DNA of 64,000 bases. It comes from Candidatus Giovannonibacteria bacterium (GTDB lineage Bacteria > Patescibacteriota > Minisyncoccia > JACPKW01 > UBA11713). The stretch is taken from positions 13,508-77,507 of the forward strand of contig JACPKW010000001.1 of the NCBI GenBank assembly GCA_016186825.1, written 5' to 3'. Of this stretch, positions 31,451-56,021 are shown in pieces. Numbering within the stretch: position 1 is the first letter of the stretch; every line of letters begins with the position of its first letter. Below the pieces are notes generated by a model. It ran no database searches, was not told the DNA's origin, and saw only the letters and a list, made by a program, of their open reading frames with translations. Position numbers and translations under genes: made by a program.

Positions 31451-32289
31451 ATTATCTTCTAGAAACTTAGAATTGATGTTCCCACGTAGTGTGCGGATTT
31501 CCCGCGCTACGCGAGCTCTAATGCATTGATGCTTTTATTTTATAGAGCTTAGCTAACCCCTGCTTGTTAAGATGTTGGCCGTTTTTTATCCTCAACATCA
31601 GATCACAGAATATCTCAAAGTCTCTTTTCTTTGATTTAAGCTGCAACTGATGAGTTTTAAAAAACGGAATAATGACATCTTCAAGATCCTTTCTATTGGA
31701 TACTTCATAGCGATAACAATTCTGGTGATTCTTACGTGTATCTTTCTGAAAATACACCTCGCCGCAACCGAAAAATTTTTTTAGCCTAAAGAGAATTTCA
31801 GAGTCTCTCTCAATAAGCTTTAAATAAAATTTCGGTTCAGCTCTAACCCATCTTTTTACATTTTTTGTAAATTCAGGGTTTTTAATGTAGGCGGTAAAAC
31901 TACCCTCGCCATCAACTAGTCCAATAATATATTCGGCATTAAGCATATTTAGAGTGGATCCTTTCCGGTTCTAGCCGGTACTATGATCCAGCTGACTTCT
32001 GACGCTGCGTAAGTTTCATTATATCTTATCTTGCGACAAAATAGCAGCGTCAGATCTCCACAGGTCATTTTATTTTCTATTCCAAGCATCCGAATTGGCC
32101 TTATTATGATCTTCCCTGCCCTCACCGCCAATTGCAGGTCGAACTGCCATTTATATATCGGCTGCTTTTTGCTTCCAGATCCTTCGCTTGCCGCTTCACA
32201 GCGGCAAACTATCTTTCGGCTATGCTCTTTGACGAGAAGAGAAATGGATTTTAACCATTCAGAAAATAAAACTGCTGCGCGCTTTTATT
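31451..32289 (-). mobile_element. intron-like insertion 1 in the 16S gene (near E. coli position 1391) carrying a LAGLIDADG ORF
   Basis: The 16S sequence stops after ...CTTGTACTCAC and resumes CGCCCGTCACG 839 bp later. Conserved rRNA flanks are intact on both sides. Confidence 0.65.
31518..31946 (-). CDS. LAGLIDADG homing endonuclease (single-motif)
   Basis: 142 aa. The N-terminal IIGLVDGEGSF is the LAGLIDADG motif. Encoded inside the 16S insertion on the same strand as the rRNA. Confidence 0.75.
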   Translation of the reverse strand: MLNAEYIIGLVDGEGSFTAYIKNPEFTKNVKRWVRAEPKFYLKLIERDSEILFRLKKFFGCGEVYFQKDTRKNHQNCYRYEVSNRKDLEDVIIPFFKTHQLQLKSKKRDFEIFCDLMLRIKNGQHLNKQGLAKLYKIKASMH

Positions 32290-32714
32290 GTGAGTACAAG
32301 ACTCGAGAACGTATTCACCGCGGCATAGCTGATCCGCGATTACTAGCGATTCCAGCTTCATGAGGTCGAGTTTCAGACCTCAATCCGAACTGAGCTCACC
32401 TTTGATGAGATTGGCTCCGCCTTACGGCATCGCGACCCATTGTAGTGAGCATTGTAGCATGTGTGTAGCCCAGGGCATCAGAGGGTCATGCTGACCTGGC
32501 GTCATCCCCGCCTTCCTCCCCCTATACGGAGGCAGTCTCGTCTGACACTTATAACAGACGATAAGGGTTGCGTTCGTTACCCCACTTAAGGGAACAGCTC
32601 AAGCCACGAACTGACGACGGCCATGCAACACCTGTGTAAGCGTCCTTGTGAGACATTTTTTCTTTCGAAAAAATTTCGCTTACATTTCAAGCCCTGGTGA
32701 GGTTCTTCGTTTAC

Positions 32715-32749
<35 letters not shown>

Positions 32750-32896
32750 AGTCCCCGTCTATTCCTTTGAGTTTTAATCTTGCGATCGTACTTCCCAGGC
32801 GGCAGGCTTAACGCGTTAGCTTACGGCTCCCGAAGGGTCGATACTTCGGATGCCTAGCCTGCATCGTTTAGGGCGTGGACTACAAGGGTATCTACA

Positions 32897-33593
32897 AATT
32901 TGTTGCTAACAACAAATTTGAAATTTTCAATTTTACAATTTCCAATTTTCAAAATGTTGTAGGGCAAGACATTTCTGCTTGTCTCTCTGCATCGCTGCAG
33001 AGTTCAGACTATATCATACGAGCACTTTGAGAAGCGGACGTCGTTAGACATCCGGACTTCAAAGTGCTCGCCTCGGCGTATAGTCGTTGAGGGGAATTAG
33101 ACTGGGATAAAACGACTCACCTCATAAAGGTTTCTGCCAATAACTCGATCTCCGCCAGCTTCGATGTTCTTGATAAATTCAGCCAAATCCGCTTTCGCAA
33201 GATCGTCGGACTCCTGTTCGATGCATTCAACTATGCTGCGGTTCTTGTTTTCTATATCAAGTATAGCGAGATAGTTCATTTTCTACTCCTTTCTTAATTC
33301 TTCCCTGCTGGTTATCCGCACCAAAACATTTTTACTCTTGCAAGTAGTTTTGGATACACCGGACTTTCCAGCATATAGCTCCCGCCTCGGCTCACGCCTC
33401 GACGGGATTCTCAATTTTGCAGCCAACATGCGTTGGGCAAAATTGGAACAAGTTTTTTATCCTCGTCCGCCAGTTAGCGGATTCGAGGGGACTAGTTTTC
33501 CGCCGATACCCTCGGCGGCCACTGCACAGCAGTAAAATCTCCAATTTGAAAATTGAAAATTGTAAATTGAAAATTTCGCTGCCATGCAGCGGG
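32897..33593 (-). mobile_element. intron-like insertion 2 in the 16S gene (within the GGATTA|GATACCC block, near E. coli position 788)
   Basis: About 697 bp interrupt a universally conserved block. The insertion termini carry complementary AT-rich repeats (AAATTTGAAATTTTCAATTTTACAATTTCC at 32921-32950 and GAAAATTGAAAATTGTAAATTGAAAATTTC at 33549-33578) that could pair the intron ends. Confidence 0.55.
33097..33279 (-). CDS. small acidic ORF inside 16S insertion 2, preceded by a strong SD
   Basis: 60 aa. The minus-strand upstream sequence reads GAATTAAGAAAGGAGTAGAAA-ATG, so the SD AAAGGAG lies 6 nt from the start. No recognised motif. Confidence 0.35.
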   Translation of the reverse strand: MNYLAILDIENKNRSIVECIEQESDDLAKADLAEFIKNIEAGGDRVIGRNLYEVSRFIPV

Positions 33594-33920
33594 TTAATCC
33601 TTTTTGATCCCCACGCTTTCGTGTTTCAGGGTCAGGAATGCCCCAGCAAATTGCCTTCGCCTTTGGTGTTCCCCTAGATATCAACGGATTTCACCCCTAC
33701 ACCTAGAGTTCCATTTGCCTCTGGCACCCTCCGAGCTCGGCCGTTTCCCCGCCAGCTTCAGGGTTGAGCCCTGAAATTTAAACGGAGACTAACCGTGCCC
33801 CCTACACACCCTTTACGCCCAATAAATCCGGATAACGCTCGGGCTCCTCGTCTTACCGCGGCTGCTGGCACGAGGTTAGCAAGCCCTTATTCCTGCGGTA
33901 CCGTCAGAGTTAGAGCTGTG

Positions 33921-34148
33921 AAGAGACAAGTTTTTTTCCTTTCTACTTGCCTCGTATTTTCCTTATTGGATAAGGACTATTGAAAATATATTTGGGGTTG
34001 TCATTTTTGATTCTTATGAATCTCCCAGGGACTTCATCTGATGTTGCTTCAAATTCTTTTGTAACTCTTTCCCCGGTTTTTTGATTTACCCCGCGCACTA
34101 TATACAAATAGCGCTGATATTCTCTATTTAACATTTTAAATATCTCCT
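33921..34148 (-). other. insertion of about 228 nt in the loop of the 16S V3 hairpin (helix 17), intervening-sequence-like
   Basis: Complementary stems GAGTTAGAGCTGTG (33907-33920) and CACAGCTCCAACTC (34149-34162) flank about 228 nt where E. coli has about 35 nt. Confidence 0.5.
33943..34134 (-). CDS. small basic ORF (63 aa) inside the 16S V3 insertion, preceded by an SD
   Basis: MLNREYQRYLYIVRGVNQKTGERVTKEFEATSDEVPGRFIRIKNDNPKYIFNSPYPIRKIRGK. The upstream minus-strand sequence is GTGAGGAGATATTT-ATG (GGAG 7 nt from the start). The longer ORF-track version (to 34299) runs into conserved rRNA and is rejected. Confidence 0.35.
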   Translation of the reverse strand: MLNREYQRYLYIVRGVNQKTGERVTKEFEATSDEVPGRFIRIKNDNPKYIFNSPYPIRKIRGK

Positions 34149-34626
34149 CACAGCTCCAACTCTTCTTCTCGCAGAAAAGCGGTTTACGCTCCGAAGAGCT
34201 TCTTCCCGCACGCGGCGTCGCTCGATCAGGCTTTCGCCCATTGTCGAATGTTCTTGACTGCAGCCACCCGTAGGTGTATGGACCGTGTCGCAGTTCCATT
34301 GGTGGGGATCAAGCTCTCACTTCCCCTAGCCGTCATAGCCTTGGTAGGCCATTACCCTACCAACAAGCTGATAGCCCGCAGGCCTTTCCCAGAGCCTATC
34401 GCTAGATTTACTCGGCACCTTCCAAACTTCGTGTAATTCGCTCGACACAAAGTCTCGAAGGTGCCGAGACTATCGGGAATTAGCTAACCTTTCGGCTAGT
34501 TATGCCCGTCTCTGGGGTAAGTTCCTACGTGTTACTACCCCGTCTGCCACTGAACATCTAAATCCGTCGCATTGATATAATCTCAACTCCTTCAAAAGAT
34601 GTTCCGTTCGACTTGCATGCCTTATC

Positions 34627-34666
<40 letters not shown>

Positions 34667-35068
34667 TTTGAATTGCTCACGCATTGCGCGAGCAAATTTT
34701 GAACGGGACAAAAGAGAGTAGTTATAACTTTCTTTTGTCACAAACTTTTCACCCGCTTAAGTATTGTCTTAAACAATTCCTTGCGGGTTGTGTGTCCCGA
34801 TTTTGCTTCTGCAAAGCAGAAATGCAAAATCGAGGATCCCCGATTTTCATTTATGAAAATCGGGACATGTTTTTGATATTCTTTTTTCAACGTTCTGTCG
34901 ATCTGAATATTCTCTGTAAACAAACCCGCAACTGCCTTCACATAAAAACAGTTGCGGACTTGTTTATTTTTCAAATAAATTTTTAGGGCTGTTTACATAA
35001 GTTTTCGAATTAATTCTAAGTCCAATGTCCATTATATGGTTCCTGCAAAGCTTGTCAACCGGCCGATT

Positions 35069-40323: not shown

Positions 40324-42597
40324 TCAGAGTTGTCGAGATCTAATGGCAATCTTTCTGAAAAAGTAATAGAGGAGATAGGCAGGAATTGCTAAGATTGCGC
40401 AAAGAATCCAAATTATGTTTGAGCCGCCGCCGAGTTGATGCCGAATTTTTTTCTTTTCAGAAATTTCATAAGCGAGCAAAGCAGAGCCTAAAATTGCAGT
40501 GAAAATAATCAGAAAAGGCTTGAAATAATCGCCGATTCCAGTATAGGGCACTTGGCTTAAAAAGATATGCGATGCGGGAATCAATTGGCCTTGAAGCGTC
40601 ACATTGCTTGAAGGTAGGATCGGGCCGCCTACGCCACCACCGCCACCTCCTCCGCCACCGCCGCCACCGCCACCTCCTCCGCCGCCATTTCCTCCACCGC
40701 CATTTCCTCCACCGCCATTTCCTCCACCGCCACCGCCACCTTTTTTAGCGTTGGTAAATGTGCAAGTAACGGTTTCACCGAAACTCAAATTTATCTCACT
40801 TGTGGAATTTACGTTGCTGCAATTTGAGCTCTGGTTGTAGTCCGAATTTGAATTTTCTGTCACGGAGTAGACGCCCGGATTAAGCCCCGAAAAAGTTTTG
40901 GAATTTGAGAACGCGTCAGTAGTACTGCCGTTATCATCCAACTGGAAAGTTGTGGTAGCTAGACCAAGCGCTTTTGAGAAGAAATTAAATGTAAAAGCAG
41001 TCGCGTCATCAGGATCCGTATTTTTTATAATCACAAGATTCGCTTTTTTCTTTGTATTCGTGAAAGTGCATGTTACCGTTTCGCGCTCTGAAATTTTGAT
41101 CTCTGAAACCTGGCTTCCATCACTGCAAGATGAAATCGTTTCAAATAATGAATTGGGATCTTCACTGACGGCATAAGTTCCTGGAACCAGATTCACGAAA
41201 GTTTTTGAATTGGAAAATTGATTTGAATTGTTTCCATCATCATCGAGCTGGAAAACACCCGGATTTAAATTATCGGAACGGAAAGTAAATACGGTGCTGT
41301 GATCGGGAACGGTGTCTTTAACAATTACCAGGGAACCGAAAGCAGGCGGGGCTGGAGGTTGAGGCGGTTCTTCTTCATCTGCGGGGTTTTCACCTTCCTC
41401 GCCTTCATCTTCTGCGTCATCTTCACCGACTCCATCATCATCTTCTTCTGCAACCCCGTCGTCATCCTCCTCCGCAACTCCATCATCGTCTTCGCCTGCC
41501 GCGCCATCATCATCTTCCCCCGCGGTGCCGTCATCATCTTCACCTGCTGACCCATCGTCATCGCCCCCTCCGTCATTGTCATTATCACCATCGTCATCAC
41601 CATCGTCATCACTATCGTCATCGCTATCTCCGTCATCATCGCTATCACTGTCTCCATCATCATCACCACCATCTCCATCGCCGTCTCCGTCACCACCATC
41701 TGTGCCATAGTAGCGAAGCTTAAATTCAATTTGATCACTGTTATTGGCACCAATTGTTTTCAAAGGAATCTGGAAAGTATATGTTTTGTGTTCCCATTTT
41801 ACCTTGCTTGTATATTCATAATCGCTTTTGCCCCATTCCGCATGATTGTTGTCGATTTTGAAAAATCGGACACCGCTGTCAGTTTTTATTGCAAGCTCCG
41901 CCCAGTCGCCCTCCGGATCAAGCGTGTTGTCTGAAGTCCAGTCCAGAAACAATCTTAACTTCTCGCCGCTTGTTCTAAAGTATGCATATCTCGTCGCGGC
42001 AGGATGGCTCGATGCAGGTATTGCATCGAATTTATAAACCTTGTTTTGGCCAACCTCGTAATTTAAGTATCCTTTTTCAGGCCATTCATAAGGGACGCCC
42101 TTGTAATCTTCCTCGACTCCCGTAATAAAAAGCGTTCTTCCTTTTTCAATCCACGAAAGCTCAATAGTCTTTGACAACGCATCAACAACATCATAATCGG
42201 CATGCGAAAGTTTCTTCGTTGAAATCAATTTTCCGTCAGATGCGTACTTCGCCTCGGAAGGAATTTTTCCGCCTAGCGAAACTTCATCCAGATGCGCGCT
42301 TTGAGAATTTCCATCATGCCTAATGCGGACCCGATTAGTTTCTCCCGGAAGCAGGATAGTTTTTGATGTATAGCGATCGGGGTAAGGTTGCCCCGGAAAA
42401 TTTTCATCTGCAACAAAAATCCATTCGCCGTTATTGTAAGCTTCAATAATAAATGTTCCCGCTTCTGCGCGCGCATCAAAAACTCCCGATGTGAAAACAG
42501 AATGCAGTATGCGGACCACAAAATATAAAATTACGAAAAACAAAACCGCGTTTATCTTCTTAATTGTTATAATTTTTTTATTTATTTCTTTTTCCAT
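40324..42597 (-). CDS. large cell-surface protein: beta-sandwich repeats, acidic Asp/Gly/Glu tract, poly-Gly tract, VPYTG sorting-like signal
   Basis: The start is moved to MEKEINKK (signal/TM at AVLFFVILYFVV). Two repeated modules end ...GETVTCTFTN. Low-complexity GDGDGD...DDDG...EEDDDG and (GGGGN)n tracts. The C-terminus has QVPYTG, a hydrophobic stretch and a basic patch. A sortase gene lies 1.4 kb upstream. Confidence 0.7.
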   Translation of the reverse strand: MEKEINKKIITIKKINAVLFFVILYFVVRILHSVFTSGVFDARAEAGTFIIEAYNNGEWIFVADENFPGQPYPDRYTSKTILLPGETNRVRIRHDGNSQSAHLDEVSLGGKIPSEAKYASDGKLISTKKLSHADYDVVDALSKTIELSWIEKGRTLFITGVEEDYKGVPYEWPEKGYLNYEVGQNKVYKFDAIPASSHPAATRYAYFRTSGEKLRLFLDWTSDNTLDPEGDWAELAIKTDSGVRFFKIDNNHAEWGKSDYEYTSKVKWEHKTYTFQIPLKTIGANNSDQIEFKLRYYGTDGGDGDGDGDGGDDDGDSDSDDDGDSDDDSDDDGDDDGDNDNDGGGDDDGSAGEDDDGTAGEDDDGAAGEDDDGVAEEDDDGVAEEDDDGVGEDDAEDEGEEGENPADEEEPPQPPAPPAFGSLVIVKDTVPDHSTVFTFRSDNLNPGVFQLDDDGNNSNQFSNSKTFVNLVPGTYAVSEDPNSLFETISSCSDGSQVSEIKISERETVTCTFTNTKKKANLVIIKNTDPDDATAFTFNFFSKALGLATTTFQLDDNGSTTDAFSNSKTFSGLNPGVYSVTENSNSDYNQSSNCSNVNSTSEINLSFGETVTCTFTNAKKGGGGGGGNGGGGNGGGGNGGGGGGGGGGGGGGGGGGVGGPILPSSNVTLQGQLIPASHIFLSQVPYTGIGDYFKPFLIIFTAILGSALLAYEISEKKKIRHQLGGGSNIIWILCAILAIPAYLLYYFFRKIAIRSRQL

Positions 42598-42723
42598 ATG
42601 ATTTTGGATCTGTTGATGCAGACCCTTCTTTGCCCCGAAATTTATTTCGGGATAAAGAAGGATCCGGAAGGAGAGCGCATGCACCCGCATGACTCTTCCT
42701 TCCGGAATTACGCGTCACTCGTT

Positions 42724-43938
42724 TCACTCGTTCGTAGAAAAGTGGAATCGTGAAAATTCTGTCACGACTCCACGTTCGCCCTTCGGCTCCCGAGTTTTGC
42801 CGAAAGGTCTGGACTTTAGTTTCCCTCCGCTCGGGTATCGGAGGATCCCTTTTGGCCCGTAAATTTCAAAAAACATATCATCACGAGCCCAAGACAGCGG
42901 GAACTTTAGTTCGCCCACGCCGTCGCAAACTTCGAGCGAAATAGTATTTGCTTCCGGTCCGAAACCTGAAAGCCTTTCGCGCCTGCCGTTCCGCTCAAAA
43001 ATGGAACCATGAGCGGCGTCAAAATTCGCATTTGTAAACCTCACCAGAAATTTCTGGCAAGGAAGCGAACTTAACTGCGCAATACCCTGCTTCTTTTCTT
43101 CCATGATTTTCTTGCCCAGGTTGTGGCTTTGAAAACCTGGTTTTTCATTAAGCAAGGCAGCAGTCCCGATCGGCTTCCACAAGCGTGGGAGAATACTAAA
43201 CATATCTTCCACACGTGTTGGTTCGACGGTAGACACGCCCGGAGGCGGCGGCGGGACATAGGCCTGCGAAACAGGCGGTTTCGCTGGGAAACACAGCCGC
43301 GACCAGTTGTTACAATCAAATGGATGTACCAGCCGGCAGGTTGTTCCTGCGATTGTTACATCCCACGATTCCTTGGATGCCTCAACGGCCAATTCAACAG
43401 GGACACCTAACTCCATACCGCTCCCCACCATCATCGCATCCAATTTATCGCCTCGAATCAGAGCTCCCGGGGCTCCCTCTTCGGTTTGAACTTTTTTTAG
43501 AAATTCTTTTTGGTAACCGAAGAACGGTGTGCCTTGGGCGAACAGGCATTTGATTGCCTCCTCGCGCGTCCCCTTGTAAGGGTCTCCTCGAAGAGACCTC
43601 CAAGGCTTGCCGCGAGCCACGATTTTACATGGATCCGCAACCCGCGCCTGCGCAGTTTTAACTTTTGGGGGCGGCTTCTTGGTTGCCTTGGCGGGCGGCT
43701 TCTTTACTTTCGCCGCCGCAACTTTTGCCGGCACATCACCTCCCGCACCCATCTCAACTTTTTTTTCAAATTCTTTTTTTGCCTTTTCGGCGGCTTTTAC
43801 CGCCGAGTCAGGCGCAGACTGGATCAACGGCACCTGCATGATTTCCTCCGCTCCCCAAGCGCTTTCCAGCAGCCCGAGAACTACTACCACGACTCCTGCC
43901 GCGAGGGAGGGCCAAAAAACCGAACCTGTCTCTTTCAT
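42724..43938 (-). CDS. secreted protein of unknown function (GC-rich gene)
   Basis: 404 aa. N-terminal signal-like hydrophobic segment, a Lys/Ala/Pro-rich tract (AAKVKKPPAKATKKPPPKVK), then a Cys-containing globular part. The composition is clearly GC-richer than the neighbours. Confidence 0.55.
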   Translation of the reverse strand: MKETGSVFWPSLAAGVVVVVLGLLESAWGAEEIMQVPLIQSAPDSAVKAAEKAKKEFEKKVEMGAGGDVPAKVAAAKVKKPPAKATKKPPPKVKTAQARVADPCKIVARGKPWRSLRGDPYKGTREEAIKCLFAQGTPFFGYQKEFLKKVQTEEGAPGALIRGDKLDAMMVGSGMELGVPVELAVEASKESWDVTIAGTTCRLVHPFDCNNWSRLCFPAKPPVSQAYVPPPPPGVSTVEPTRVEDMFSILPRLWKPIGTAALLNEKPGFQSHNLGKKIMEEKKQGIAQLSSLPCQKFLVRFTNANFDAAHGSIFERNGRRERLSGFGPEANTISLEVCDGVGELKFPLSWARDDMFFEIYGPKGILRYPSGGKLKSRPFGKTREPKGERGVVTEFSRFHFSTNE

Positions 43939-44038
43939 AACACCTCCAAATTTCTTAATTGAACGTTGTTTATTGACGCGTTTTTAGTTTAAAAAGAACT
44001 TCCTCCTTCCTTCCTCATCTCATTTCCAAACTGTTCAA

Positions 44039-44091
44039 TTTGTCAAACATTGTCAAACATCTGATGTCTGACAAATTTAGATGTTGGACAA
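44039..44091. promoter_or_regulatory. array of TTGTC(A/C)(A/G)ACATC half-sites (two direct, two inverted), candidate operator
   Basis: TTGTCAAACAT|TGTCAAACATC t GATGTCTGACAA ...GATGTTGGACAA. A 25-bp near-perfect palindrome with one mismatch, plus flanking half-site copies. It lies about 100 bp upstream of the 42724-43938 gene and just downstream of the sortase gene. Confidence 0.55.
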
Positions 44092-44093
44092 GC

Positions 44094-44870
44094 TTATGAA
44101 GAAGCACCCGCCGAGAGTAGAGTCGCTCCAAACGGATATCTCTTCACAAATTCCGCTTCAACAATGTAGCGTTCCTCATTTGCGCCGAAAATTTTGCAGG
44201 TTGAAAGGGTCAAAATTTTTCTGCCGTCAGTATGAAAATCAATTTCTGCGTCTTCAGCCCGCCTTATCTGCACATTTAAAACCTTGTAGGCATACTCGTA
44301 GCCGTTCGAACGCATGTAAATTGCATCGCCGTATTTCAATTCTTTTAAATTATTAAATACTATTGAATTTTTATTTCTCGGATTAAGCACGCCCGCAGAA
44401 TGCCCAAAGACAAACATGTTTCCAACTTCGCCCGGCATTACAGAGCCCGGGTAATGAACTGGGCCTTTGAGCAAACTCGCCGTTAAGTAATCCCAATCGT
44501 TTTTGATCGGAAAAACTATTTGGCTCTGCACGCCAGCCTTAGGAATTACAAGTTGAACTCCGCCCTCAAAACTTATTCGAGCATTTTCATCTTCTGGAAC
44601 TGTTTCAGATTCAGAAACTGCAGGCGATGCCTCCTCGTTATCACCTTGCGTAAATGACCCGAAAACCCACGCAACCGAATTTAAGAAAACTTCCGAAATT
44701 CCGTCTTTAAGATTGCCGCCAAAAATAGGCGTGAAAAAAATTAATGCAAAAATGCCGAGCAAAATTACAAGCCACAAACCCAAAAAACCCAAACTAAATA
44801 TCCCTTCGCTTTTTGCGCGTAAATCAGCTCGGCATCCATGTTTTTCTAAAATTTCACCTCTTTGATACAT
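44094..44870 (-). CDS. sortase-family transpeptidase
   Basis: 258 aa. N-terminal TM anchor, catalytic His in FVFGHSAG, Cys in ILTLSTCKIFG (TLxTC), downstream Arg. Confidence 0.75.
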   Translation of the reverse strand: MYQRGEILEKHGCRADLRAKSEGIFSLGFLGLWLVILLGIFALIFFTPIFGGNLKDGISEVFLNSVAWVFGSFTQGDNEEASPAVSESETVPEDENARISFEGGVQLVIPKAGVQSQIVFPIKNDWDYLTASLLKGPVHYPGSVMPGEVGNMFVFGHSAGVLNPRNKNSIVFNNLKELKYGDAIYMRSNGYEYAYKVLNVQIRRAEDAEIDFHTDGRKILTLSTCKIFGANEERYIVEAEFVKRYPFGATLLSAGASS

Positions 44871-44995
44871 AAATTCTAGGACCTAATTTATTCAATATTC
44901 ACTACATGATTTTAGGAATGTCGTCAAGGTTGACAGGTATTGACATTTATTTAGATAAATCCTAAAATACGCGAGTTAAAAATTCAATTACAACT

Positions 44996-45991
44996 ATGGA
45001 CCAAAACATAAATGCCAGGACAAATCAGTTTTATACGCGGCTTTTAATAATTCTCGCGATAGTTCTGATTTTAGTTATCACCGCAACCGCGCTCCTTTTT
45101 AAAGGCAGCGACAGATTGCGCCAACTCGGATCGTCTTTCGTTTCCCTGTTCTCGAGAAAAGTTACTGAAAAACAAGAACTGATTCTGAAAGCTGAACCAA
45201 TGCAGGTTAAGTCGGGAGAAAATTTCAGGCTTTCTTACGAACATCGCGGTAAAAAAGAAGACGGCTCTTACACTCTAAGCTTTCAATGCGCCGAAGATCT
45301 TAAATTAATGCTCGACACTGGTGAGCCAGTTTTTTGTTCGCGGCCGCTCGATCTAACTGTTGCGGAGTTGACGCTGAAAGCGTCAAGCACAAAAACAGGA
45401 TTTTCCGAATTGCCGATCAGACTTGAATTTCAAAGCGCTGCAACCTCGACCTCCGACCAGGTGATCGTCAGAATTGAAAGAGAGAGCAACAAGACAACCG
45501 GAGGAACAAATGCTCAAACTGGAACTTCAACTCCTCCGAAACAGACAACCACAAATCCACCGAAAGTGGTAGTCGGTCAGCCGAAGACAATTTATAACAA
45601 CGAACCTATCCGCGATCCGAGTCACGTTGATCTTGATTTAAAAATTATTGATCGCGGAGTTGTAAACCCCACGACTGGCGTATTTACATCAAAATCCACA
45701 GTAGCTTCGGGCGAACGAGCCGCAGTCGTTTTTGATGTTCAAAATAATGGCGGCGTGCCTTCTGGACCTTGGTTTCTTTATGCCCGCCTTCCGATATCCG
45801 ATAAGAATTTCACATCCTCCGTTCAGCCCTCGCTCAAGCCTGGCGACAAAATCAGATTCACGATGGGCTTCGGCGATCTTTTGAATTCCGGCCCGAACGA
45901 CGTTTCATTTAGCGCGAATATTCAGATCAGGCTCCTTGAATCTAATTTCATAAATAATACCGCGACAACTTCTGTAAATCGCGGCTTCTAA
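44996..45991 (+). CDS. secreted protein with a C-terminal CARDB-like beta-sandwich
   Basis: 331 aa. N-terminal TM (LLIILAIVLILVI). The C-terminal segment DLDLKIIDRGVVNP...AAVVFDVQNNGGVPSGPWFLYARL resembles CARDB. Confidence 0.45.
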   Translation: MDQNINARTNQFYTRLLIILAIVLILVITATALLFKGSDRLRQLGSSFVSLFSRKVTEKQELILKAEPMQVKSGENFRLSYEHRGKKEDGSYTLSFQCAEDLKLMLDTGEPVFCSRPLDLTVAELTLKASSTKTGFSELPIRLEFQSAATSTSDQVIVRIERESNKTTGGTNAQTGTSTPPKQTTTNPPKVVVGQPKTIYNNEPIRDPSHVDLDLKIIDRGVVNPTTGVFTSKSTVASGERAAVVFDVQNNGGVPSGPWFLYARLPISDKNFTSSVQPSLKPGDKIRFTMGFGDLLNSGPNDVSFSANIQIRLLESNFINNTATTSVNRGF

Positions 45992-48607: not shown

Positions 48608-49288
48608 TCATATGTTGAACATTCGATGTTCAACATTGAGCCTTTCTTCCAGTTTTCGTATGCTTGTCTTTTCAAGCAAATCTCTATACTCGGAGCGGGT
48701 TTCAAATTGATCTAAGATTAAGCTCGGATTTAAAAAATTTGCCCATCGACTTTCATAAACATAATCTTGATAGCTAGACCAAGGATATTGTAATTCTTTT
48801 TTCTTCCACCGTTTTAATTCTCCAGGGTTTAAGTGGATATACGCAGTTAGGTAATGCAAATATTTATCAGTATCTATATGCGCGGATTGAAATTTGCTTC
48901 CAAAAAGATGGCCGGAGCGATTATATCTGGTGTTGAAATATTTCGTATATGCATTTAGCAGACGCTGCATATATTTAGAAATCCCTCCTTCTTTTTCGCT
49001 ACCTACAATCAAGTGGAAGTGATTCGCCATCAAACAAAAACCTACTAGTTCAATATATCTTGACTTTTCAATCTGTCCAAAAATCAAATTGTTGAACATT
49101 CGATGTTCAACCAATGGCACGATGCGCCCAAAAGGATTCAAAACTGCATCACCTTGGAGCGCAAAGAGAAGCGAAAGAAAACGCCAGCGATCTTTATCAT
49201 CAAGAAAGATATTGCGTTTCTCAACCCCTCGGTTGAAAACATGGTAATACTCTCCACCCGCTAATTTTGCCCGAGACATAATCCTCAT
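48608..49288 (-). CDS. IS200-like Y1 (HUH) transposase, REP-associated tyrosine transposase (RAYT)-like
   Basis: The start is taken at the first ATG (MRIMSRAK). The ORF-track start at 49315 is a TTG inside a hairpin. YYHVFNRG (like YHVxxRG) and LMANHFHLIV (the HUH motif) are diagnostic. A C-terminal Tyr-containing helix is present. Confidence 0.7.
   Translation of the reverse strand: MRIMSRAKLAGGEYYHVFNRGVEKRNIFLDDKDRWRFLSLLFALQGDAVLNPFGRIVPLVEHRMFNNLIFGQIEKSRYIELVGFCLMANHFHLIVGSEKEGGISKYMQRLLNAYTKYFNTRYNRSGHLFGSKFQSAHIDTDKYLHYLTAYIHLNPGELKRWKKKELQYPWSSYQDYVYESRWANFLNPSLILDQFETRSEYRDLLEKTSIRKLEERLNVEHRMFNI
48612..48636. repeat. REP-like palindrome ATGTTGAACAT-TCG-ATGTTCAACAT (3' copy, overlaps the last 9 codons of the transposase)
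   Basis: Perfect 11-bp arms, read directly. Confidence 0.85.
49090..49111. repeat. REP-like palindrome TGTTGAACAT-TCG-ATGTTCAACC (internal copy, in-frame inside the transposase gene)
   Basis: 9/10 arm match. It encodes the same VEHRMFN peptide as the 3' copy. Confidence 0.8.
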
Positions 49289-49294
49289 TATAAA

Positions 49295-49317
49295 TGTTGA
49301 ACATCCAATGTTCAACA
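49295..49317. repeat. REP-like palindrome TGTTGAACAT-CCA-ATGTTCAACA (5' copy at the transposase start)
   Basis: Perfect 10-bp arms, immediately upstream of or overlapping the start region. Confidence 0.85.
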
Positions 49318-53335: not shown

Positions 53336-55111
53336 ATGAAAAATTCTAATGGGGTGCTAAAGCAGAAGAAATCGCACGAATTACTTAATCCTCAAAAAAA
53401 ATTAGGCAATACCCGCCATTCGCTCGCCCATTTGCTTGCGGCTGCGGTCTTAAAAAAATTCCCAAACGCGAAACTTGGAATTGGACCCGCGATCGAGACG
53501 GGTTTTTATTATGATTTCTTACTTCCGCGGCAACTAACTTCGGGAGATCTGAAGGATTTCGAAGAAACAATGCGGACGATGATTTTAGAATGTCTCCGCT
53601 TCACTGGGAAAAAAGTTACGCCGGTTTTGGCAAAAAAACTCTTTAAGGATCAGAAATTCAAGCTTGAGCTTATTTCGGACTTCACGAAAGAAAAAAAACC
53701 GCTCACGGTTTACAGCACTGGGAATATATTTATGGATCTCTGCCGCGGAGGGCATGTTAAAAATACTTCTGAAATAAATCCTGACGCTTTCAGGCTTACG
53801 CACATTGCTGGCGCCTATTGGAAAGGTAATGAAAAAAATCCGCAGTTGACTAGAATTTATGGTGTTGCCTTCGATTCCAAAAAAGAGCTCGAAGACTATT
53901 TAATGAAGCAGGAGGAAGCCAAAAAACGAGATCACAGAAGGCTGGGAAAAGATCTTTCGCTTTTTGCAATCGCAGATGAAATCGGCCCCGGACTTCCGCT
54001 CTTTTATCCCAAAGGAGCGATCTTAAGGCGCACTGTTGAAAATTTCATTCAAGATCTACAGGAAAAAAATGGCTACGAACCTATTTGGATTCCGCATATA
54101 ACTAAAGGCGAGCTATATAAAATTTCTGGGCACCTTGATAAATACGATGCGATGTATCCCCCGATGAAATTGAAGGGCGAGGCGGAATATTATCTAAAAC
54201 CGATGAACTGCCCGCATTTCATGATGCTCTATAGAACACGCGCTCATTCCTACCGCGAGCTTCCGATTCGCTGGACCGCCACAACAACTGTTTACCGGCT
54301 TGAGAAATCCGGCGAGCTTTCGGGCCTGACGCGCGTTCGCTCGCTTACGCAAGACGACTGCCATGTTTTTGCAAAAGCGGACCAAATCGAGAATGAAATA
54401 AATCTAATGCTCGACATGCTTGAGAAAGTTTACGGCGCTTTTGGTTTTAATGACTTTCGAGTTCACATCTCCACTCACGACCCTAAAGATATCAAAAAAT
54501 ATATCGGCGAGCGCAAGATCTGGAAACAATCAGAAAAAATTCTCGAAAATTTGATCCAAAAAAGAAGCTGGAGTTTTGAAATTGTTCCCGGCGAAGCGGC
54601 GTTTTACGGGCCAAAGCTCGACTTTATTTTTAAGGATGTTTTAGGTCGGGAATGGCAGCTTTCGACGATCCAACTCGACATGAATCTTCCGAAACGATTT
54701 GAGCTTGAGTATACTGACGAAAACGGAAAAAGAAAAGAACCGATCGTCATTCATCGCGCAATTTTGGGATCAACAGAGAGATTTCTCGGAATTATTGTCG
54801 AGCATTTTGCAGGTGCATTTCCTTTTTGGTTGGCGCCAGTTCAGGTTTCAATTTTAACTATAAATGAAAAAACTTTTCCGTTTGCAAAAGGGATAGAGCG
54901 AGAGCTTCGAAAAAGTGAAATTAGAGTTGAAATAGACTCAAGAAACGAAACCATCGGCAAAAAAATTCGCGAAGCAGAAATGCAAAAAGTCCCGTTCATC
55001 TTGATAATAGGCGATAAGGAAGTTGCCGCAAATAAAGTTGCCGTGCGCGAAAGAGGCAAAGGCGACCTCGGTCAAAAAACACTCGAAGAATTTCTAAAAA
55101 TTGCGAAATAA
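53336..55111 (+). CDS. thrS: threonyl-tRNA synthetase (lacks the N-terminal TGS domain)
   Basis: 591 aa. Starts in the editing domain (RHSLAHLLAAAV...GPAIETGFYYDF). Class II catalytic motifs (KPMNCPHFMM, FRLE, GAFYGPKLD) and an anticodon-binding domain. Confidence 0.85.
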   Translation: MKNSNGVLKQKKSHELLNPQKKLGNTRHSLAHLLAAAVLKKFPNAKLGIGPAIETGFYYDFLLPRQLTSGDLKDFEETMRTMILECLRFTGKKVTPVLAKKLFKDQKFKLELISDFTKEKKPLTVYSTGNIFMDLCRGGHVKNTSEINPDAFRLTHIAGAYWKGNEKNPQLTRIYGVAFDSKKELEDYLMKQEEAKKRDHRRLGKDLSLFAIADEIGPGLPLFYPKGAILRRTVENFIQDLQEKNGYEPIWIPHITKGELYKISGHLDKYDAMYPPMKLKGEAEYYLKPMNCPHFMMLYRTRAHSYRELPIRWTATTTVYRLEKSGELSGLTRVRSLTQDDCHVFAKADQIENEINLMLDMLEKVYGAFGFNDFRVHISTHDPKDIKKYIGERKIWKQSEKILENLIQKRSWSFEIVPGEAAFYGPKLDFIFKDVLGREWQLSTIQLDMNLPKRFELEYTDENGKRKEPIVIHRAILGSTERFLGIIVEHFAGAFPFWLAPVQVSILTINEKTFPFAKGIERELRKSEIRVEIDSRNETIGKKIREAEMQKVPFILIIGDKEVAANKVAVRERGKGDLGQKTLEEFLKIAK

Positions 55112-56021
55112 TAAGGCCGCCCACGGGAAAAAAGGCAAACTGATCGTCATTCTCGGCCCAACCGCCTCGGGAAAATCTGAATTTGCAGTCAAACTTGCCA
55201 AAAAATTGAAAGGCGAGATTATTTCGGCCGATTCAAGACAAGTTTATAAAGGGCTAGATATCGGAACTGCCAAAGTTAAGGGTGAGTGGGTAGGCGGAAG
55301 ATTTATTTTCAAAGGTATCCCTCATTATTGCATTGACTTTGTATCGCCAAAGAAAGTTTTCAGTGTTCGCGACTTCATAAAATTCGCAGAGGAAGCAATC
55401 ACTTCGATATATCGAAGTGGAAAAATTCCATTTGTTGTCGGCGGAACTGCTTTTTATATCAGTGCTTTTGTGGATGGCATAATCTTGCCAGAAGTTCCAC
55501 CTAACGTAAAACTGCGAAAGAAATTATCAAACTATTCAACTAATCAACTATTTAACTATTTGACAAAATTAGATCCTGAACGCGCCAAAACAATTGACCA
55601 AAAAAATAAACGCCGCTTAATCCGCGCGCTTGAAATTGTGGCAGCCATCGAGAAAGTCCCCCCTCTATCGACATCGGATGTCGATAGGAGGAAAAAATAT
55701 ACCAGTAATTTTATCGGATTAAAAACGGCGCCAGAAAAATTAAAAAAAAGAATCAAAAAACGCACTCGAGATATGATTAGACGCGGACTGACCCGAGAAG
55801 TTTCGAGCTTACATCGTTCCGGTTTGAGTTGGAAGCGCATTTATGAGTTCGGATTTGAATATAAATACCCCGCGCTCTACTTGCAAAAGAAAATTTCAAA
55901 AACAGAAATGATTTCATCAATAAATAAAGAATCAATTGACTACACGCGCCGCCAAATGCTCTGGTGGAAGAATGATAAACGAATTCACTGGATAAGCACG
56001 GCGCCAGTTTCTCGAAACTAG
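55101..56021 (+). CDS. miaA: tRNA dimethylallyltransferase
   Basis: 306 aa. P-loop ILGPTASGKSEFAVKLAKKL, ISADSRQVYKGLDIGTAK. Confidence 0.85.
   Translation: MRNNKAAHGKKGKLIVILGPTASGKSEFAVKLAKKLKGEIISADSRQVYKGLDIGTAKVKGEWVGGRFIFKGIPHYCIDFVSPKKVFSVRDFIKFAEEAITSIYRSGKIPFVVGGTAFYISAFVDGIILPEVPPNVKLRKKLSNYSTNQLFNYLTKLDPERAKTIDQKNKRRLIRALEIVAAIEKVPPLSTSDVDRRKKYTSNFIGLKTAPEKLKKRIKKRTRDMIRRGLTREVSSLHRSGLSWKRIYEFGFEYKYPALYLQKKISKTEMISSINKESIDYTRRQMLWWKNDKRIHWISTAPVSRN

What the first reader, a model, noticed from the sequence alone, without database searches (positions are those of the whole stretch)
42724..44091. GC-rich secreted protein gene of unknown fold, preceded by a half-site operator array
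The 404-aa secreted protein gene is markedly GC-richer than its surroundings, suggesting horizontal origin. It has no recognisable domain, and contains an H1-like Lys/Ala/Pro tract and a Cys-containing core. About 100 bp upstream of its start (and just downstream of the sortase gene) lies an ordered array of half-sites: TTGTCAAACAT, TGTCAAACATC, t, GATGTCTGACAA, then 5 nt and GATGTTGGACAA. That is two direct plus two inverted copies of TTGTC(A/C)(A/G)ACATC, including a 25-bp near-perfect palindrome. This is typical of a multimeric repressor or activator operator.
Basis: seen in the sequence. Interest (0 to 1): 0.5.

Follow-up and report, generated by a model that had tools for sequence, protein, structure and literature searches.

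The report
REP-like palindrome cluster, not an operator
The "operator array" in front of this secreted-protein gene is most likely a cluster of small selfish DNA hairpin repeats, tied to a transposase-like gene 4.5 kb away and found across many ultra-small (CPR) bacteria; the gene itself belongs to a rare protein family that always sits next to a sortase.

Summary
The sequence features are all real. The 404-aa gene (42724-43938, minus strand) has the highest GC in the window. Four TTGTCMRACATC half-sites lie at 44040-44091, 2 nt after the sortase stop codon and 101 nt before the ATG.

The operator reading does not hold. The central palindrome fits TGTC-NN-ACATC-N-GATGT-NN-GACA. That pattern has 82 hits in species-representative genomes, mostly Patescibacteria, against about 9 expected.

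In this window and in at least 30 other loci, the same palindrome class flanks and sits inside a Y1 HUH transposase-like gene (window 48608-49288). Solo copies are dispersed and mostly intergenic, facing 3' gene ends more often than 5' ends. Some lie in frame inside genes. Two relatives without the Y1 gene have no palindromes in the 20.7 kb examined.

Homologous sortase-p404 gene pairs elsewhere lack the array. It is therefore best read as a REP/BIME-like composite. Any regulatory effect (RNA hairpin, -18 kcal/mol) would be secondary.

The parts
44040..44091 (.). Composite palindromic array with arrangement H-H-H'-H'. It has a complete 23-bp palindrome (44051-44073, TGTCAAACATC-T-GATGTCTGACA) plus one extra copy of each arm (44040-44049 and 44080-44091). 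Read as a REP/BIME-like cluster.
   Evidence: The palindrome fits the pattern found in 82 genome loci. The RNA fold of 44030-44100 (minus strand) is -18 kcal/mol, z -2.94. No Rfam family matches. Extra arm copies beside a full palindrome also occur in L021, L141 and L152.
42724..43938 (-). p404: a secreted or N-terminally anchored 404-aa protein. It has a disordered K/A/P linker and two confidently predicted globular regions, mainly beta-strand. It belongs to a rare sortase-linked family.
44094..44870 (-). Sortase gene (PF04203, 84 bits), directly upstream of the array and p404.
   Evidence: A sortase precedes the p404 homolog in L094, L095, L096, L097 and the P0009 contig.
44909..44936 (-). 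Weak sigma-70-like promoter match (CTGTCA-16-TAAAAT, 9/12) upstream of the sortase gene. It is the only candidate promoter found for sortase plus p404.
   Evidence: consensus match only.
40324..42600 (-). Large surface protein with weak SpaA/prealbumin-like domain matches, Asp/Gly-rich tracts and a C-terminal VPYTG motif followed by a hydrophobic segment and KKK. Probable sortase substrate.
   Evidence: Pfam hits are below cut-off; the motif was read from the translation.
44996..45991 (+). Divergent 331-aa cassette gene with no Pfam family. It is 30% identical to the equivalent divergent gene in L097.
48608..49288 (-). Y1 HUH transposase-like (RAYT-like) gene. Motifs are NHFH, GHLF-G-KFQ, YIHLNP and WSS.
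   Evidence: PF01797 scores 39.3 bits (cut-off 23). NCBIfam REP_Tyr_transpos scores 35.7 bits, below its cut-off of 80. Motif alignment. A homolog sits at the same syntenic position in L092.
49295..49317 (.). 5' palindrome of the Y1 gene, TGTTGAACAT-NNN-ATGTTCAACA. It overlaps a TTGAAC-17-TATAAT promoter match (49315-49287).
49090..49112 (.). Internal palindrome of the Y1 gene, in frame, encoding VEHRMFN.
48613..48635 (.). 3' palindrome of the Y1 gene. It encodes the C-terminal VEHRMFN and abuts the stop codon.
55665..55687 (.). Solo palindrome CTATCGACATC-G-GATGTCGATAG inside miaA. It is a ~7-aa in-frame insertion (STSDVDR) relative to MiaA of three relatives.

Best explanation
The array is a composite of small hairpin-forming palindromic repeats, comparable to a REP or BIME cluster. 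It belongs to a family with the core N6-ACAT-NNN-ATGT-N6 that is widespread in Patescibacteria.

The family is coupled to a Y1 HUH transposase-like ('RAYT-like') gene, present in this window at 48608-49288. That gene carries three copies of the palindrome: at its 5' flank, internally and at its 3' end.

Inferred mechanism: the Y1 protein recognises the palindrome as a 10-bp stem with a 3-nt loop on single-stranded DNA, and cuts and rejoins there. This would seed solo copies and arm duplications around the genome. One such composite landed in the gap between the sortase gene and p404.

Sortase and p404 form a conserved gene pair elsewhere, sometimes only 26-40 nt apart. They are probably co-transcribed from the sortase promoter. 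Any effect of the array is therefore most likely secondary: an RNA hairpin starting 2 nt after the sortase stop codon, which could protect the upstream message or lower read-through into p404.

p404 itself is a secreted protein with at least one prealbumin/pilin-like beta-sandwich domain. It most likely works at the cell surface together with the sortase and the neighbouring SpaA-like substrate.

Shown: the sequence anatomy, the association with the Y1 gene, the dispersal, the covariation and the gene neighbourhood. Inferred: catalysis by the Y1 protein, mobility and the RNA-level effects.
For: 1. Distribution. The central palindrome fits TGTCNNACATCNGATGTNNGACA. That pattern occurs in 82 stretches of the species-representative genome set, against about 9 expected from my estimate (596 Gb, 18 fixed bases). 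About 49-52 of the 80 listed loci come from Patescibacteria.

2. Window count. The window holds five palindromes of this class and shuffles give 0.0. Three of them mark the 5' flank, interior and 3' end of the Y1 gene.

3. Association with the Y1 gene. tblastn with the window Y1 protein finds homologs in 13 of the genome loci, 12 of them next to or overlapping palindromes. Eight show the same 5'/internal/3' triplet. Homologs also appear in 18 of 65 metagenome loci.

4. Presence and absence. Relative L092 has the Y1 gene at the same syntenic spot, with the same TGTTGAACAT palindromes and a solo copy in trmD. Relatives L090 and L093 have neither the gene nor any palindrome in 20.7 kb each.

5. 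Dispersal. 52 solo exact sites fall in 34 distinct flank clusters, 24 of them intergenic. Facing gene ends are 3' in 24 cases and 5' in 14. One 706-kb contig carries several solo copies. It also carries two Y1 paralogs: one flanked by its own variant, TGGCAAACAT, the other with TGTTGAACAT at its 3' end (L123).

6. Covariation. The two free stem positions are fully complementary in 32 of 55 assembly-variant combinations. Shuffles give a mean of 10.2 and a maximum of 20 in 2000.

7. Not conserved with the gene pair. The array is absent from the sortase-p404 gap in L094-L097.

8. Not another known element. No promoter or canonical terminator is found at the array and no Rfam family matches.

9. 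Similar composites elsewhere. A full palindrome plus an extra arm occurs at Y1 flanks in L141 and L152 and downstream of the Y1 gene in L021.
Against: - The array's arms (TGTCAAACAT, TGTCAGACAT, TGTCCAACAT) differ at 2-3 positions from the arms at the Y1 gene in the same window (TGTTGAACAT). The local Y1 protein may therefore not be their cognate enzyme. Both variants do co-occur on single contigs (L069; L099).
- Copy number is low. There are five palindromes in 64 kb and none in about 15 kb of added flanks. Classical REPs number in the hundreds.
- The palindromes lack the GT[AG]G foot of canonical REPs.
- The Y1 protein scores below the NCBIfam RAYT cut-off.
- By its motifs the protein resembles subclass 2.1, for which Quentin et al. 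2018 (PMC6006769) reported no associated REPs.
- No activity, mobility event or transcript data were seen. All evidence is comparative.
- A symmetric double-stranded binding site for a dimeric protein would also explain the covariation.
Confidence: 0.72

Rival explanations
1. Operator array. A multimeric transcription factor binds the four half-sites on duplex DNA and represses or activates p404.
For: There are four well-matched half-sites in direct and inverted orientation, 101 nt upstream of the ATG. The arms contain TTGACA-like hexamers. At the Y1 gene the same kind of palindrome overlaps a good promoter match, so protein binding near promoters is conceivable. Subclass 2.1 Y1 proteins are reported to carry HTH-like C-terminal tails.
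Against: No promoter match lies between the array and the ATG. No regulator gene is adjacent. The array is absent from four homologous sortase-p404 gaps, two of which are only 26 and 40 nt long. Family members face 3' gene ends more often than 5' ends, lie between convergent genes and sit inside ORFs. Presence tracks a transposase-like gene rather than a regulon.
Confidence: 0.08
2. Primarily an RNA element. The hairpin acts as a terminator, attenuator or 3'-end stabiliser that sets the sortase:p404 expression ratio. Its similarity to the repeats reflects co-option.
For: The minus-strand RNA folds to -18 kcal/mol, z -2.94, and 2 of 200 shuffles fold as well. It begins 2 nt after the sortase stop codon. 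Many solo copies lie 0-20 nt after stop codons or beside GC-rich terminator hairpins. REP hairpins in E. coli are known to stabilise upstream mRNA (established knowledge, not tested here).
Against: The stem is AT-rich and has no U-run, and the terminator scan reports nothing there. The element is not conserved in homologous operons. This reading does not exclude a REP-like origin and would be a secondary function.
Confidence: 0.15
3. Local accident. A chance palindrome plus slippage duplications, with no relation to anything else.
For: The two direct copies are a perfect 10-nt tandem repeat.
Against: The exact pattern recurs in 82 genome loci. The window has five class members against 0.0 in shuffles.
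Confidence: 0.02

Closest known systems
REP / BIME elements with RAYT (TnpA-REP), e.g. E. coli RayT and Pseudomonas REPINs
   Same: Short hairpin-forming palindromes flank a Y1 HUH transposase-like gene in a REPtron-like arrangement. Copies are dispersed elsewhere, mostly outside genes, and sometimes clustered in alternating or duplicated arrangements. Different Y1 paralogs carry different repeat variants.
   Different: There is no GT[AG]G foot. Copy number is very low. The core ACATC-N-GATGT is conserved across several phyla, not specific to one lineage. The protein is below the NCBIfam RAYT cut-off. The hosts are Patescibacteria.
TnpA-Y1 subclass 2.1 (Quentin et al. 2018) = Bertels group 1 RAYTs / TIRYTs
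   Same: HuH motif NHFH, FQ-type W motif, Y motif YIHLNP, a WSS serine motif after the core, and length 226-237 aa against a median of 238.
   Different: That subclass was reported to have no REP-like sequences nearby, or to have GGGG[AT][CG]A[CG] terminal inverted repeats. Here perfect 23-bp palindromes flank and interrupt the gene. The assignment rests on motifs only; no phylogeny was made.
TnpA-Y1 subclass 2.4 REPs inserted in frame in their own gene; Rickettsia palindromic elements (RPE)
   Same: Palindromes sit in frame inside the Y1 gene itself and in housekeeping genes (miaA here, trmD in L092) without breaking the reading frame. Subclass 2.4 is described. RPEs are recalled from my own knowledge.
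   Different: The protein motifs differ from subclass 2.4 (YIxNNP). RPEs are longer and no dedicated transposase is known for them.
IS200/IS605 insertion sequences
   Same: A Y1 HUH enzyme bracketed by hairpins about 700 bp apart.
   Different: The Y motif is Y-x-x-x-NP, not Y-x-x-x-Q. The two end hairpins are the same palindrome. No identical multicopy gene was seen, and a homolog occupies the same syntenic position in L092.
Sortase-dependent pilins and adhesins of Gram-positive bacteria (SpaA, BcpA, CnaB domains)
   Different: p404 has no C-terminal LPXTG-type sorting signal. There is no sequence similarity to any Pfam family. Foldseek is not significant. This fold class is very common, so the similarity is weak evidence of function.

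Membership tests
REP-RAYT system | Y1 HUH transposase-like gene with HUH and catalytic Tyr motifs | tested here: met
   PF01797 scores 39.3 bits against a cut-off of 23. NHFH and YIHLNP are conserved in the 11 homologs whose ORFs were extracted correctly.
REP-RAYT system | Protein reaches the curated RAYT equivalog model (NCBIfam NF047646) | tested here: not met
   35.7 bits against a cut-off of 80. It is a distant relative of the E. coli type.
REP-RAYT system | Gene flanked by the repeats (REPtron-like arrangement) | tested here: met
   Seen in the window, 12 genome loci, L092 and 16 of the 18 metagenome loci with a homolog.
REP-RAYT system | Repeats are 20-40 bp palindromes able to form a hairpin, with stem covariation | tested here: met
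   10-bp arms with a 3-nt centre. 32 of 55 variant combinations are fully complementary against 10.2 in shuffles.
REP-RAYT system | Repeats dispersed and mainly extragenic | tested here: met
   34 distinct solo locations, 24 of them intergenic. A 706-kb contig carries several.
REP-RAYT system | High copy number (typically >100 per genome) | tested here: not met
   Five in 64 kb and none in about 15 kb more. There are a handful per ~0.7-Mb contig. The whole genome was not available.
REP-RAYT system | Conserved 5' GT[AG]G tetranucleotide at the hairpin foot | tested here: not met
   The arms start TGTC or TGTT. No GTAG or GTGG appears at the foot.
REP-RAYT system | The Y1 protein binds and cleaves the repeat as single-stranded DNA | not testable with these tools
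   Needs biochemistry.
TnpA-Y1 subclass 2.1 / Bertels group 1 | Motifs NH[YF]H, FQ, Y[IV]HLNP, SS tail, ~238 aa | tested here: met
   Motif level only; no tree was built.
TnpA-Y1 subclass 2.1 / Bertels group 1 | No REP-like sequences near the gene (as described in 2018) | tested here: not met
   Palindromes are present at both ends of the gene. This is the respect in which the system departs from the description.
Transcription-factor operator | Site conserved upstream of orthologous or homologous genes | tested here: not met
   Absent in L094-L097.
Transcription-factor operator | Sites lie in promoter regions, facing 5' gene ends | tested here: not met
   24 3' ends against 14 5' ends, and 10 of 34 inside ORFs. 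No promoter match at the array.
Transcription-factor operator | Cognate regulator identified | not tested
   No regulator gene is adjacent. The wider window was not screened protein by protein.
Intrinsic terminator | GC-rich stem followed by a U-run | tested here: not met
   Not reported by the scan at 44040-44091. The stem is AT-rich and the tail is UGUUUGAC.
IS200/IS605 (subclass 1.1) | Y motif Y-x-x-x-Q; identical multicopy elements | tested here: not met
   The Y motif is YIHLNP. A homolog occupies the same syntenic position in L092.
Sortase substrate (LPXTG protein) | C-terminal sorting motif, then a hydrophobic segment and a basic tail | tested here: not met
   p404 ends ...FSRFHFSTNE. 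The motif is present in the downstream 758-aa protein (VPYTG...).
Prealbumin/CnaB-type pilin domain | Beta-sandwich superimposable on pilin or CnaB domains | tested here: inconclusive

The most novel reading that the evidence does not exclude
A palindromic hairpin repeat with a conserved core (ACATC-N-GATGT; arms TGT-NNN-ACAT) is the long-missing repeat partner of the largest RAYT group (subclass 2.1 / group 1). It is spread across the Candidate Phyla Radiation and also appears in some Bacteroidota and Gammaproteobacteria. It builds composite arrays and inserts in frame into housekeeping genes (miaA, trmD) and into its own transposase gene. The array before p404 is one such composite. The held literature contains no description of this repeat.
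Probability: 0.5. Interest if true: 0.65.

Novelty: new variant of a known kind. Interest (0 to 1): 0.5.

Why it matters
Three consequences follow if this reading is right.

1. A tidy-looking operator is really selfish DNA. Regulon inference in CPR genomes should mask this palindrome family.

2. It gives a concrete, testable substrate for a large class of domesticated Y1 transposases whose DNA target was unknown. It would also show that REP-type elements exist in the streamlined genomes of ultra-small bacteria, including copies carried in frame inside essential genes.

3. It defines a rare sortase-linked surface-protein family in organisms whose cell-surface biology, meaning attachment to hosts, is the central open question.

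Tried and rejected
- **Profile search with alignment A1**.
- **Single-sequence AlphaFold**. The model was poor (pLDDT 43.6) and was replaced by the A1-based model.
- **afdb50 fold library.** Not available.
- **Foldseek against PDB.** Nothing significant.
- **Contigs carrying the identical p404 protein**. All seven are 100% identical to the window, so they say nothing about conservation.
- **Promoter and terminator scan at the array**. No match, so the -35 donor and terminator readings have no support.
- **CtsR, LexA or other known operators.** I considered these from memory. No regulon-like placement was seen. The literature search for a Patescibacteria LexA motif gave nothing relevant to this sequence, and I did not test it further.
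- **Literature string search for the core**. Only unrelated primer matches.
- **Literature search combining REP and CPR terms**. None of the 12 listed papers mentions repetitive extragenic palindromes.
- **Rfam**. Nothing at the array.
- **Viral contigs**. One hit on an 11,538-bp contig with the match at the same coordinates as L059, so the element is not phage-borne.
- **Extending the genome beyond the window**. About 15 kb more sequence and no further copies.
- **phmmer of the Y1 protein against PDB**. No hit.
- **L042, a Giovannonibacteria locus with the same imperfect palindrome.** It is not orthologous to this locus.
Full report
**What is there**

The window comes from a Candidatus Giovannonibacteria genome. 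The 404-aa ORF is identical to the NCBI protein HYW53_00335. The ORF lies at 42724-43938 on the minus strand.

They start 2 nt after the stop codon of a sortase gene (44094-44870; PF04203). They end 101 nt before the ATG of the ORF. The only three exact matches to the 12-mer pattern in the window all fall within these 52 nt. The shorter core TGTCNNACAT gives 5 matches against 0.97 expected.

**Composition**

The gene has the highest GC of 58 window ORFs: 0.526 against a mean of 0.411 (sd 0.038). Its GC3 of 0.526 is matched by two other genes. Its synonymous codon usage ranks 41st of 58 in deviation. Pro (8.6% against 3.8%), Ala and Gly are enriched. Amino-acid content therefore explains much of the excess, and composition alone is weak evidence for foreign origin.

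**The turning point: the palindrome is a widespread repeat**

I scanned the species-representative genome collection for the central palindrome, written as TGTCNNACATCNGATGTNNGACA. The scan returned 82 stretches, where I estimate about 9 by chance. About 49-52 of the 80 listed loci are from Patescibacteria: Paceibacterota, Saccharibacteria, and Vogel-, Nomura-, Kaiser-, Uhr-, Sung- and Giovannonibacteria. Neolewinella/Lewinella contribute 15 loci and a gammaproteobacterial MAG contributes 4. The remainder number about as many as expected by chance.

- The two free positions in each arm are genome-specific.
- They are complementary far more often than chance allows. In 32 of 55 assembly-variant combinations both positions pair. 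Shuffles give a mean of 10.2 and a maximum of 20 in 2000.

**Link to a Y1 transposase-like gene**

In a Vogelbacteria locus (L038), three palindromes mark the two flanks and the interior of a 237-aa gene. The window has a homolog at 48608-49288.

- It matches PF01797 at 39 bits, above the cut-off.
- It matches the NCBIfam RAYT model at 35.7 bits, below the cut-off of 80.

This gene carries three palindromes of the form TGTTGAACAT-NNN-ATGTTCAACA:
- one on its promoter (TTGAAC-17-TATAAT);
- one inside the gene, in frame (VEHRMFN);
- one at the 3' end of the gene, abutting its stop codon.

A fifth palindrome lies inside miaA at 55665-55687. With the array that makes five class members in the window, against 0.0 in shuffles.

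tblastn with the window protein finds homologs in 13 of the genome loci, 12 of them beside or overlapping palindromes. Eight show the same 5'/internal/3' triplet.

**Dispersal and placement**

A metagenome scan for the TGTTGAACAT variant gave 65 loci.
- 18 loci have a Y1 homolog; in 16 of them palindromes lie at the gene.
- 52 solo exact sites fall in 34 different flanking contexts.
- Of those 34, 24 are intergenic. Neighbouring gene ends are 3' in 24 cases and 5' in 14.
- Ten are inside ORFs, nine of them in the frame that reads VEHxMFN.
- One 706-kb contig carries several solo copies. It also has two Y1 paralogs: one flanked by its own variant (TGGCAAACAT), the other with TGTTGAACAT at its 3' end (L123).

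**Relatives**

I took three Giovannonibacteria relatives with RNase III 77%, 73% and 70% identical to the window's.
- L092 has the Y1 gene at the same place as the window, between RNase HII and NusB. It has the same palindromes plus a solo copy in trmD. That copy replaces a variable loop without changing its length.
- L090 and L093 have no Y1 gene and no palindrome in 20.7 kb each.
- The miaA palindrome in the window is a roughly 7-aa in-frame insertion relative to MiaA in all three relatives.

**Is the array a conserved control element of the gene pair?**

It is not. Five p404 homologs were located on contigs, and all lie directly after a sortase on the same strand. DNA was available for four of them. 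The intergenic gaps are 26, 121, 40 and 168 nt, and none contains a palindrome of this class. No sigma-70-like promoter and no canonical terminator is found at the array. No Rfam family matches.

As RNA the region folds to -18 kcal/mol with z -2.9. A secondary effect on the sortase-p404 transcript is therefore possible but untested.

Composites of a full palindrome plus an extra arm also occur next to Y1 genes in L141 and L152, and downstream of the Y1 gene in L021. These resemble the H-H-H'-H' arrangement seen here.

**Comparison with what is known**

The anatomy is that of a REP/BIME-RAYT system. The protein's motifs (NHFH, FQ, YIHLNP, WSS; about 230 aa) match TnpA-Y1 subclass 2.1 of Quentin et al. 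2018, which corresponds to group 1 of Bertels et al. 2017. Those authors found no REP-like sequences for that subclass, and only a weak excess of flanking 16-mers.

The palindromes lack the GT[AG]G foot of canonical REPs, and copy number is low. In-frame copies inside the transposase gene recall subclass 2.4. In-frame copies in housekeeping genes recall Rickettsia palindromic elements, which I cite from my own knowledge.

None of the papers returned by the string and keyword searches describes this repeat or any REP in CPR bacteria. I therefore rate it a new variant of a known kind. The subclass assignment is by motif only.

**Weak points**

- The array's arms differ at 2-3 positions from the arms at the window's Y1 gene, so a different cognate enzyme or a decayed copy is possible. 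Both variants do co-occur on single contigs (L069; L099).
- Only about 79 kb of this genome was seen.
- Nothing shows catalysis or movement.

**The protein**

An exhaustive HMMER search of 1.84 billion representatives found only 17 remote relatives (E from 8e-15 to 1e-3). They share the motifs W-x-x-G-x-DPY-x-G, CNNW, HTIRIRLW, GFQSRDLG, YPPSG and NYHF, plus several cysteines.

The protein has no LPXTG-type signal. The downstream 758-aa protein has VPYTG followed by a hydrophobic segment and a basic tail. I infer that p404 is a surface partner in a sortase-dependent assembly.

**Origin of the gene cluster**

The segment 40224-46042 holds the 331-aa gene, the sortase, the array, p404 and the SpaA-like gene. 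It is missing between rnc and smc in the three close relatives. The same four-gene cassette lies next to smc in a more distant lineage, L097. There SMC is 44% identical, against 58-60% for the close relatives. Gain here and loss in relatives are both open.

**Verdict**

The operator interpretation is not supported. The best reading is a REP-like composite tied to a RAYT-like gene (confidence 0.72), sitting in front of a member of a rare sortase-linked protein family.

Noticed in passing
window 32243-34672 (minus strand): The 16S rRNA gene spans 2430 nt against a 1533-position model (full-length match, 1177 bits). It therefore carries about 900 nt of insertion, as reported for many CPR rRNA genes.
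   Followed up: no
window 55665-55687, inside miaA (55101-56021): A perfect 23-bp palindrome CTATCGACATC-G-GATGTCGATAG encodes LSTSDVDR. It is a ~7-aa in-frame insertion relative to MiaA of three relatives. A similar variant sits in an intergenic cluster in L130.
   Followed up: partly
L092 14501-14523 (also L117, L134, L155, L157): A solo TGTTGAACAT palindrome lies inside trmD. It encodes NVEHRMFN in place of a variable loop of the same length in relatives that lack the Y1 gene.
   Followed up: partly
L008, L017, L037, L043, L047, L050, L058, L072, L085, L087 (Paceibacterota and related MAGs): About 57-nt four-arm perfect palindromes (ATGTNGGACAT-ATCA-TGTCCNACATC-N-GATGTNGGACA-TGAT-ATGTCCNACAT) are present. 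By a crude ORF call, many lie inside long ORFs of 400-950 aa. Whether these are real in-frame insertions was not checked.
   Followed up: no
L123 (706-kb contig Ga0208375_1000003): Two Y1 paralogs lie 5 kb apart. One has a TGTTGAACAT palindrome at its 3' end and the other is flanked by TGGCAAACAT palindromes. This suggests enzyme-repeat co-variation within one genome.
   Followed up: partly
L009-L084 (Neolewinella marina, 13 loci) and L016/L022/L026/L032 (Azotimanducaceae MAG): The same palindrome core occurs many times in a cultured Bacteroidota genome, as part of a larger two-palindrome repeat, and in a gammaproteobacterial MAG. In L022 of that MAG it overlaps a Y1 homolog.
   Followed up: partly
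window 42742-42773 and about 42661-42702 (minus strand): There are two strong hairpins at and just after the 3' end of p404. The first is a terminator-like 12-bp stem followed by TTTTCT, inside the last 50 nt of the coding sequence. The second is CCGGAAGGAGAG...CTCTTCCTTCCGG in the gap before the next gene (read). Together they suggest that p404 ends a transcription unit.
   Followed up: no
window 40324-42600 and 40703: The SpaA-like protein has long Asp/Gly-rich and poly-Gly tracts. Four of the seven public short-read contigs that carry p404 break at window position 40703 inside this gene.
   Followed up: no
L097 57-7031; P0009 contig: A conserved four-gene cassette is seen in distant lineages: a divergent ~250-330-aa gene, a sortase, a p404-family gene and a large protein. 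In L097 it lies directly upstream of smc, as in the window.
   Followed up: partly
window 49277-49292: The -10 box of the Y1 gene's promoter match ends 7 nt before the ATG at 49279. The mRNA may therefore be leaderless, or the start may be the ATG at 49288.
   Followed up: no
L011 5551, L079 5724, L074 4905: Several palindromes lie within about 10 nt of tRNA gene ends (read from the flanks).
   Followed up: no
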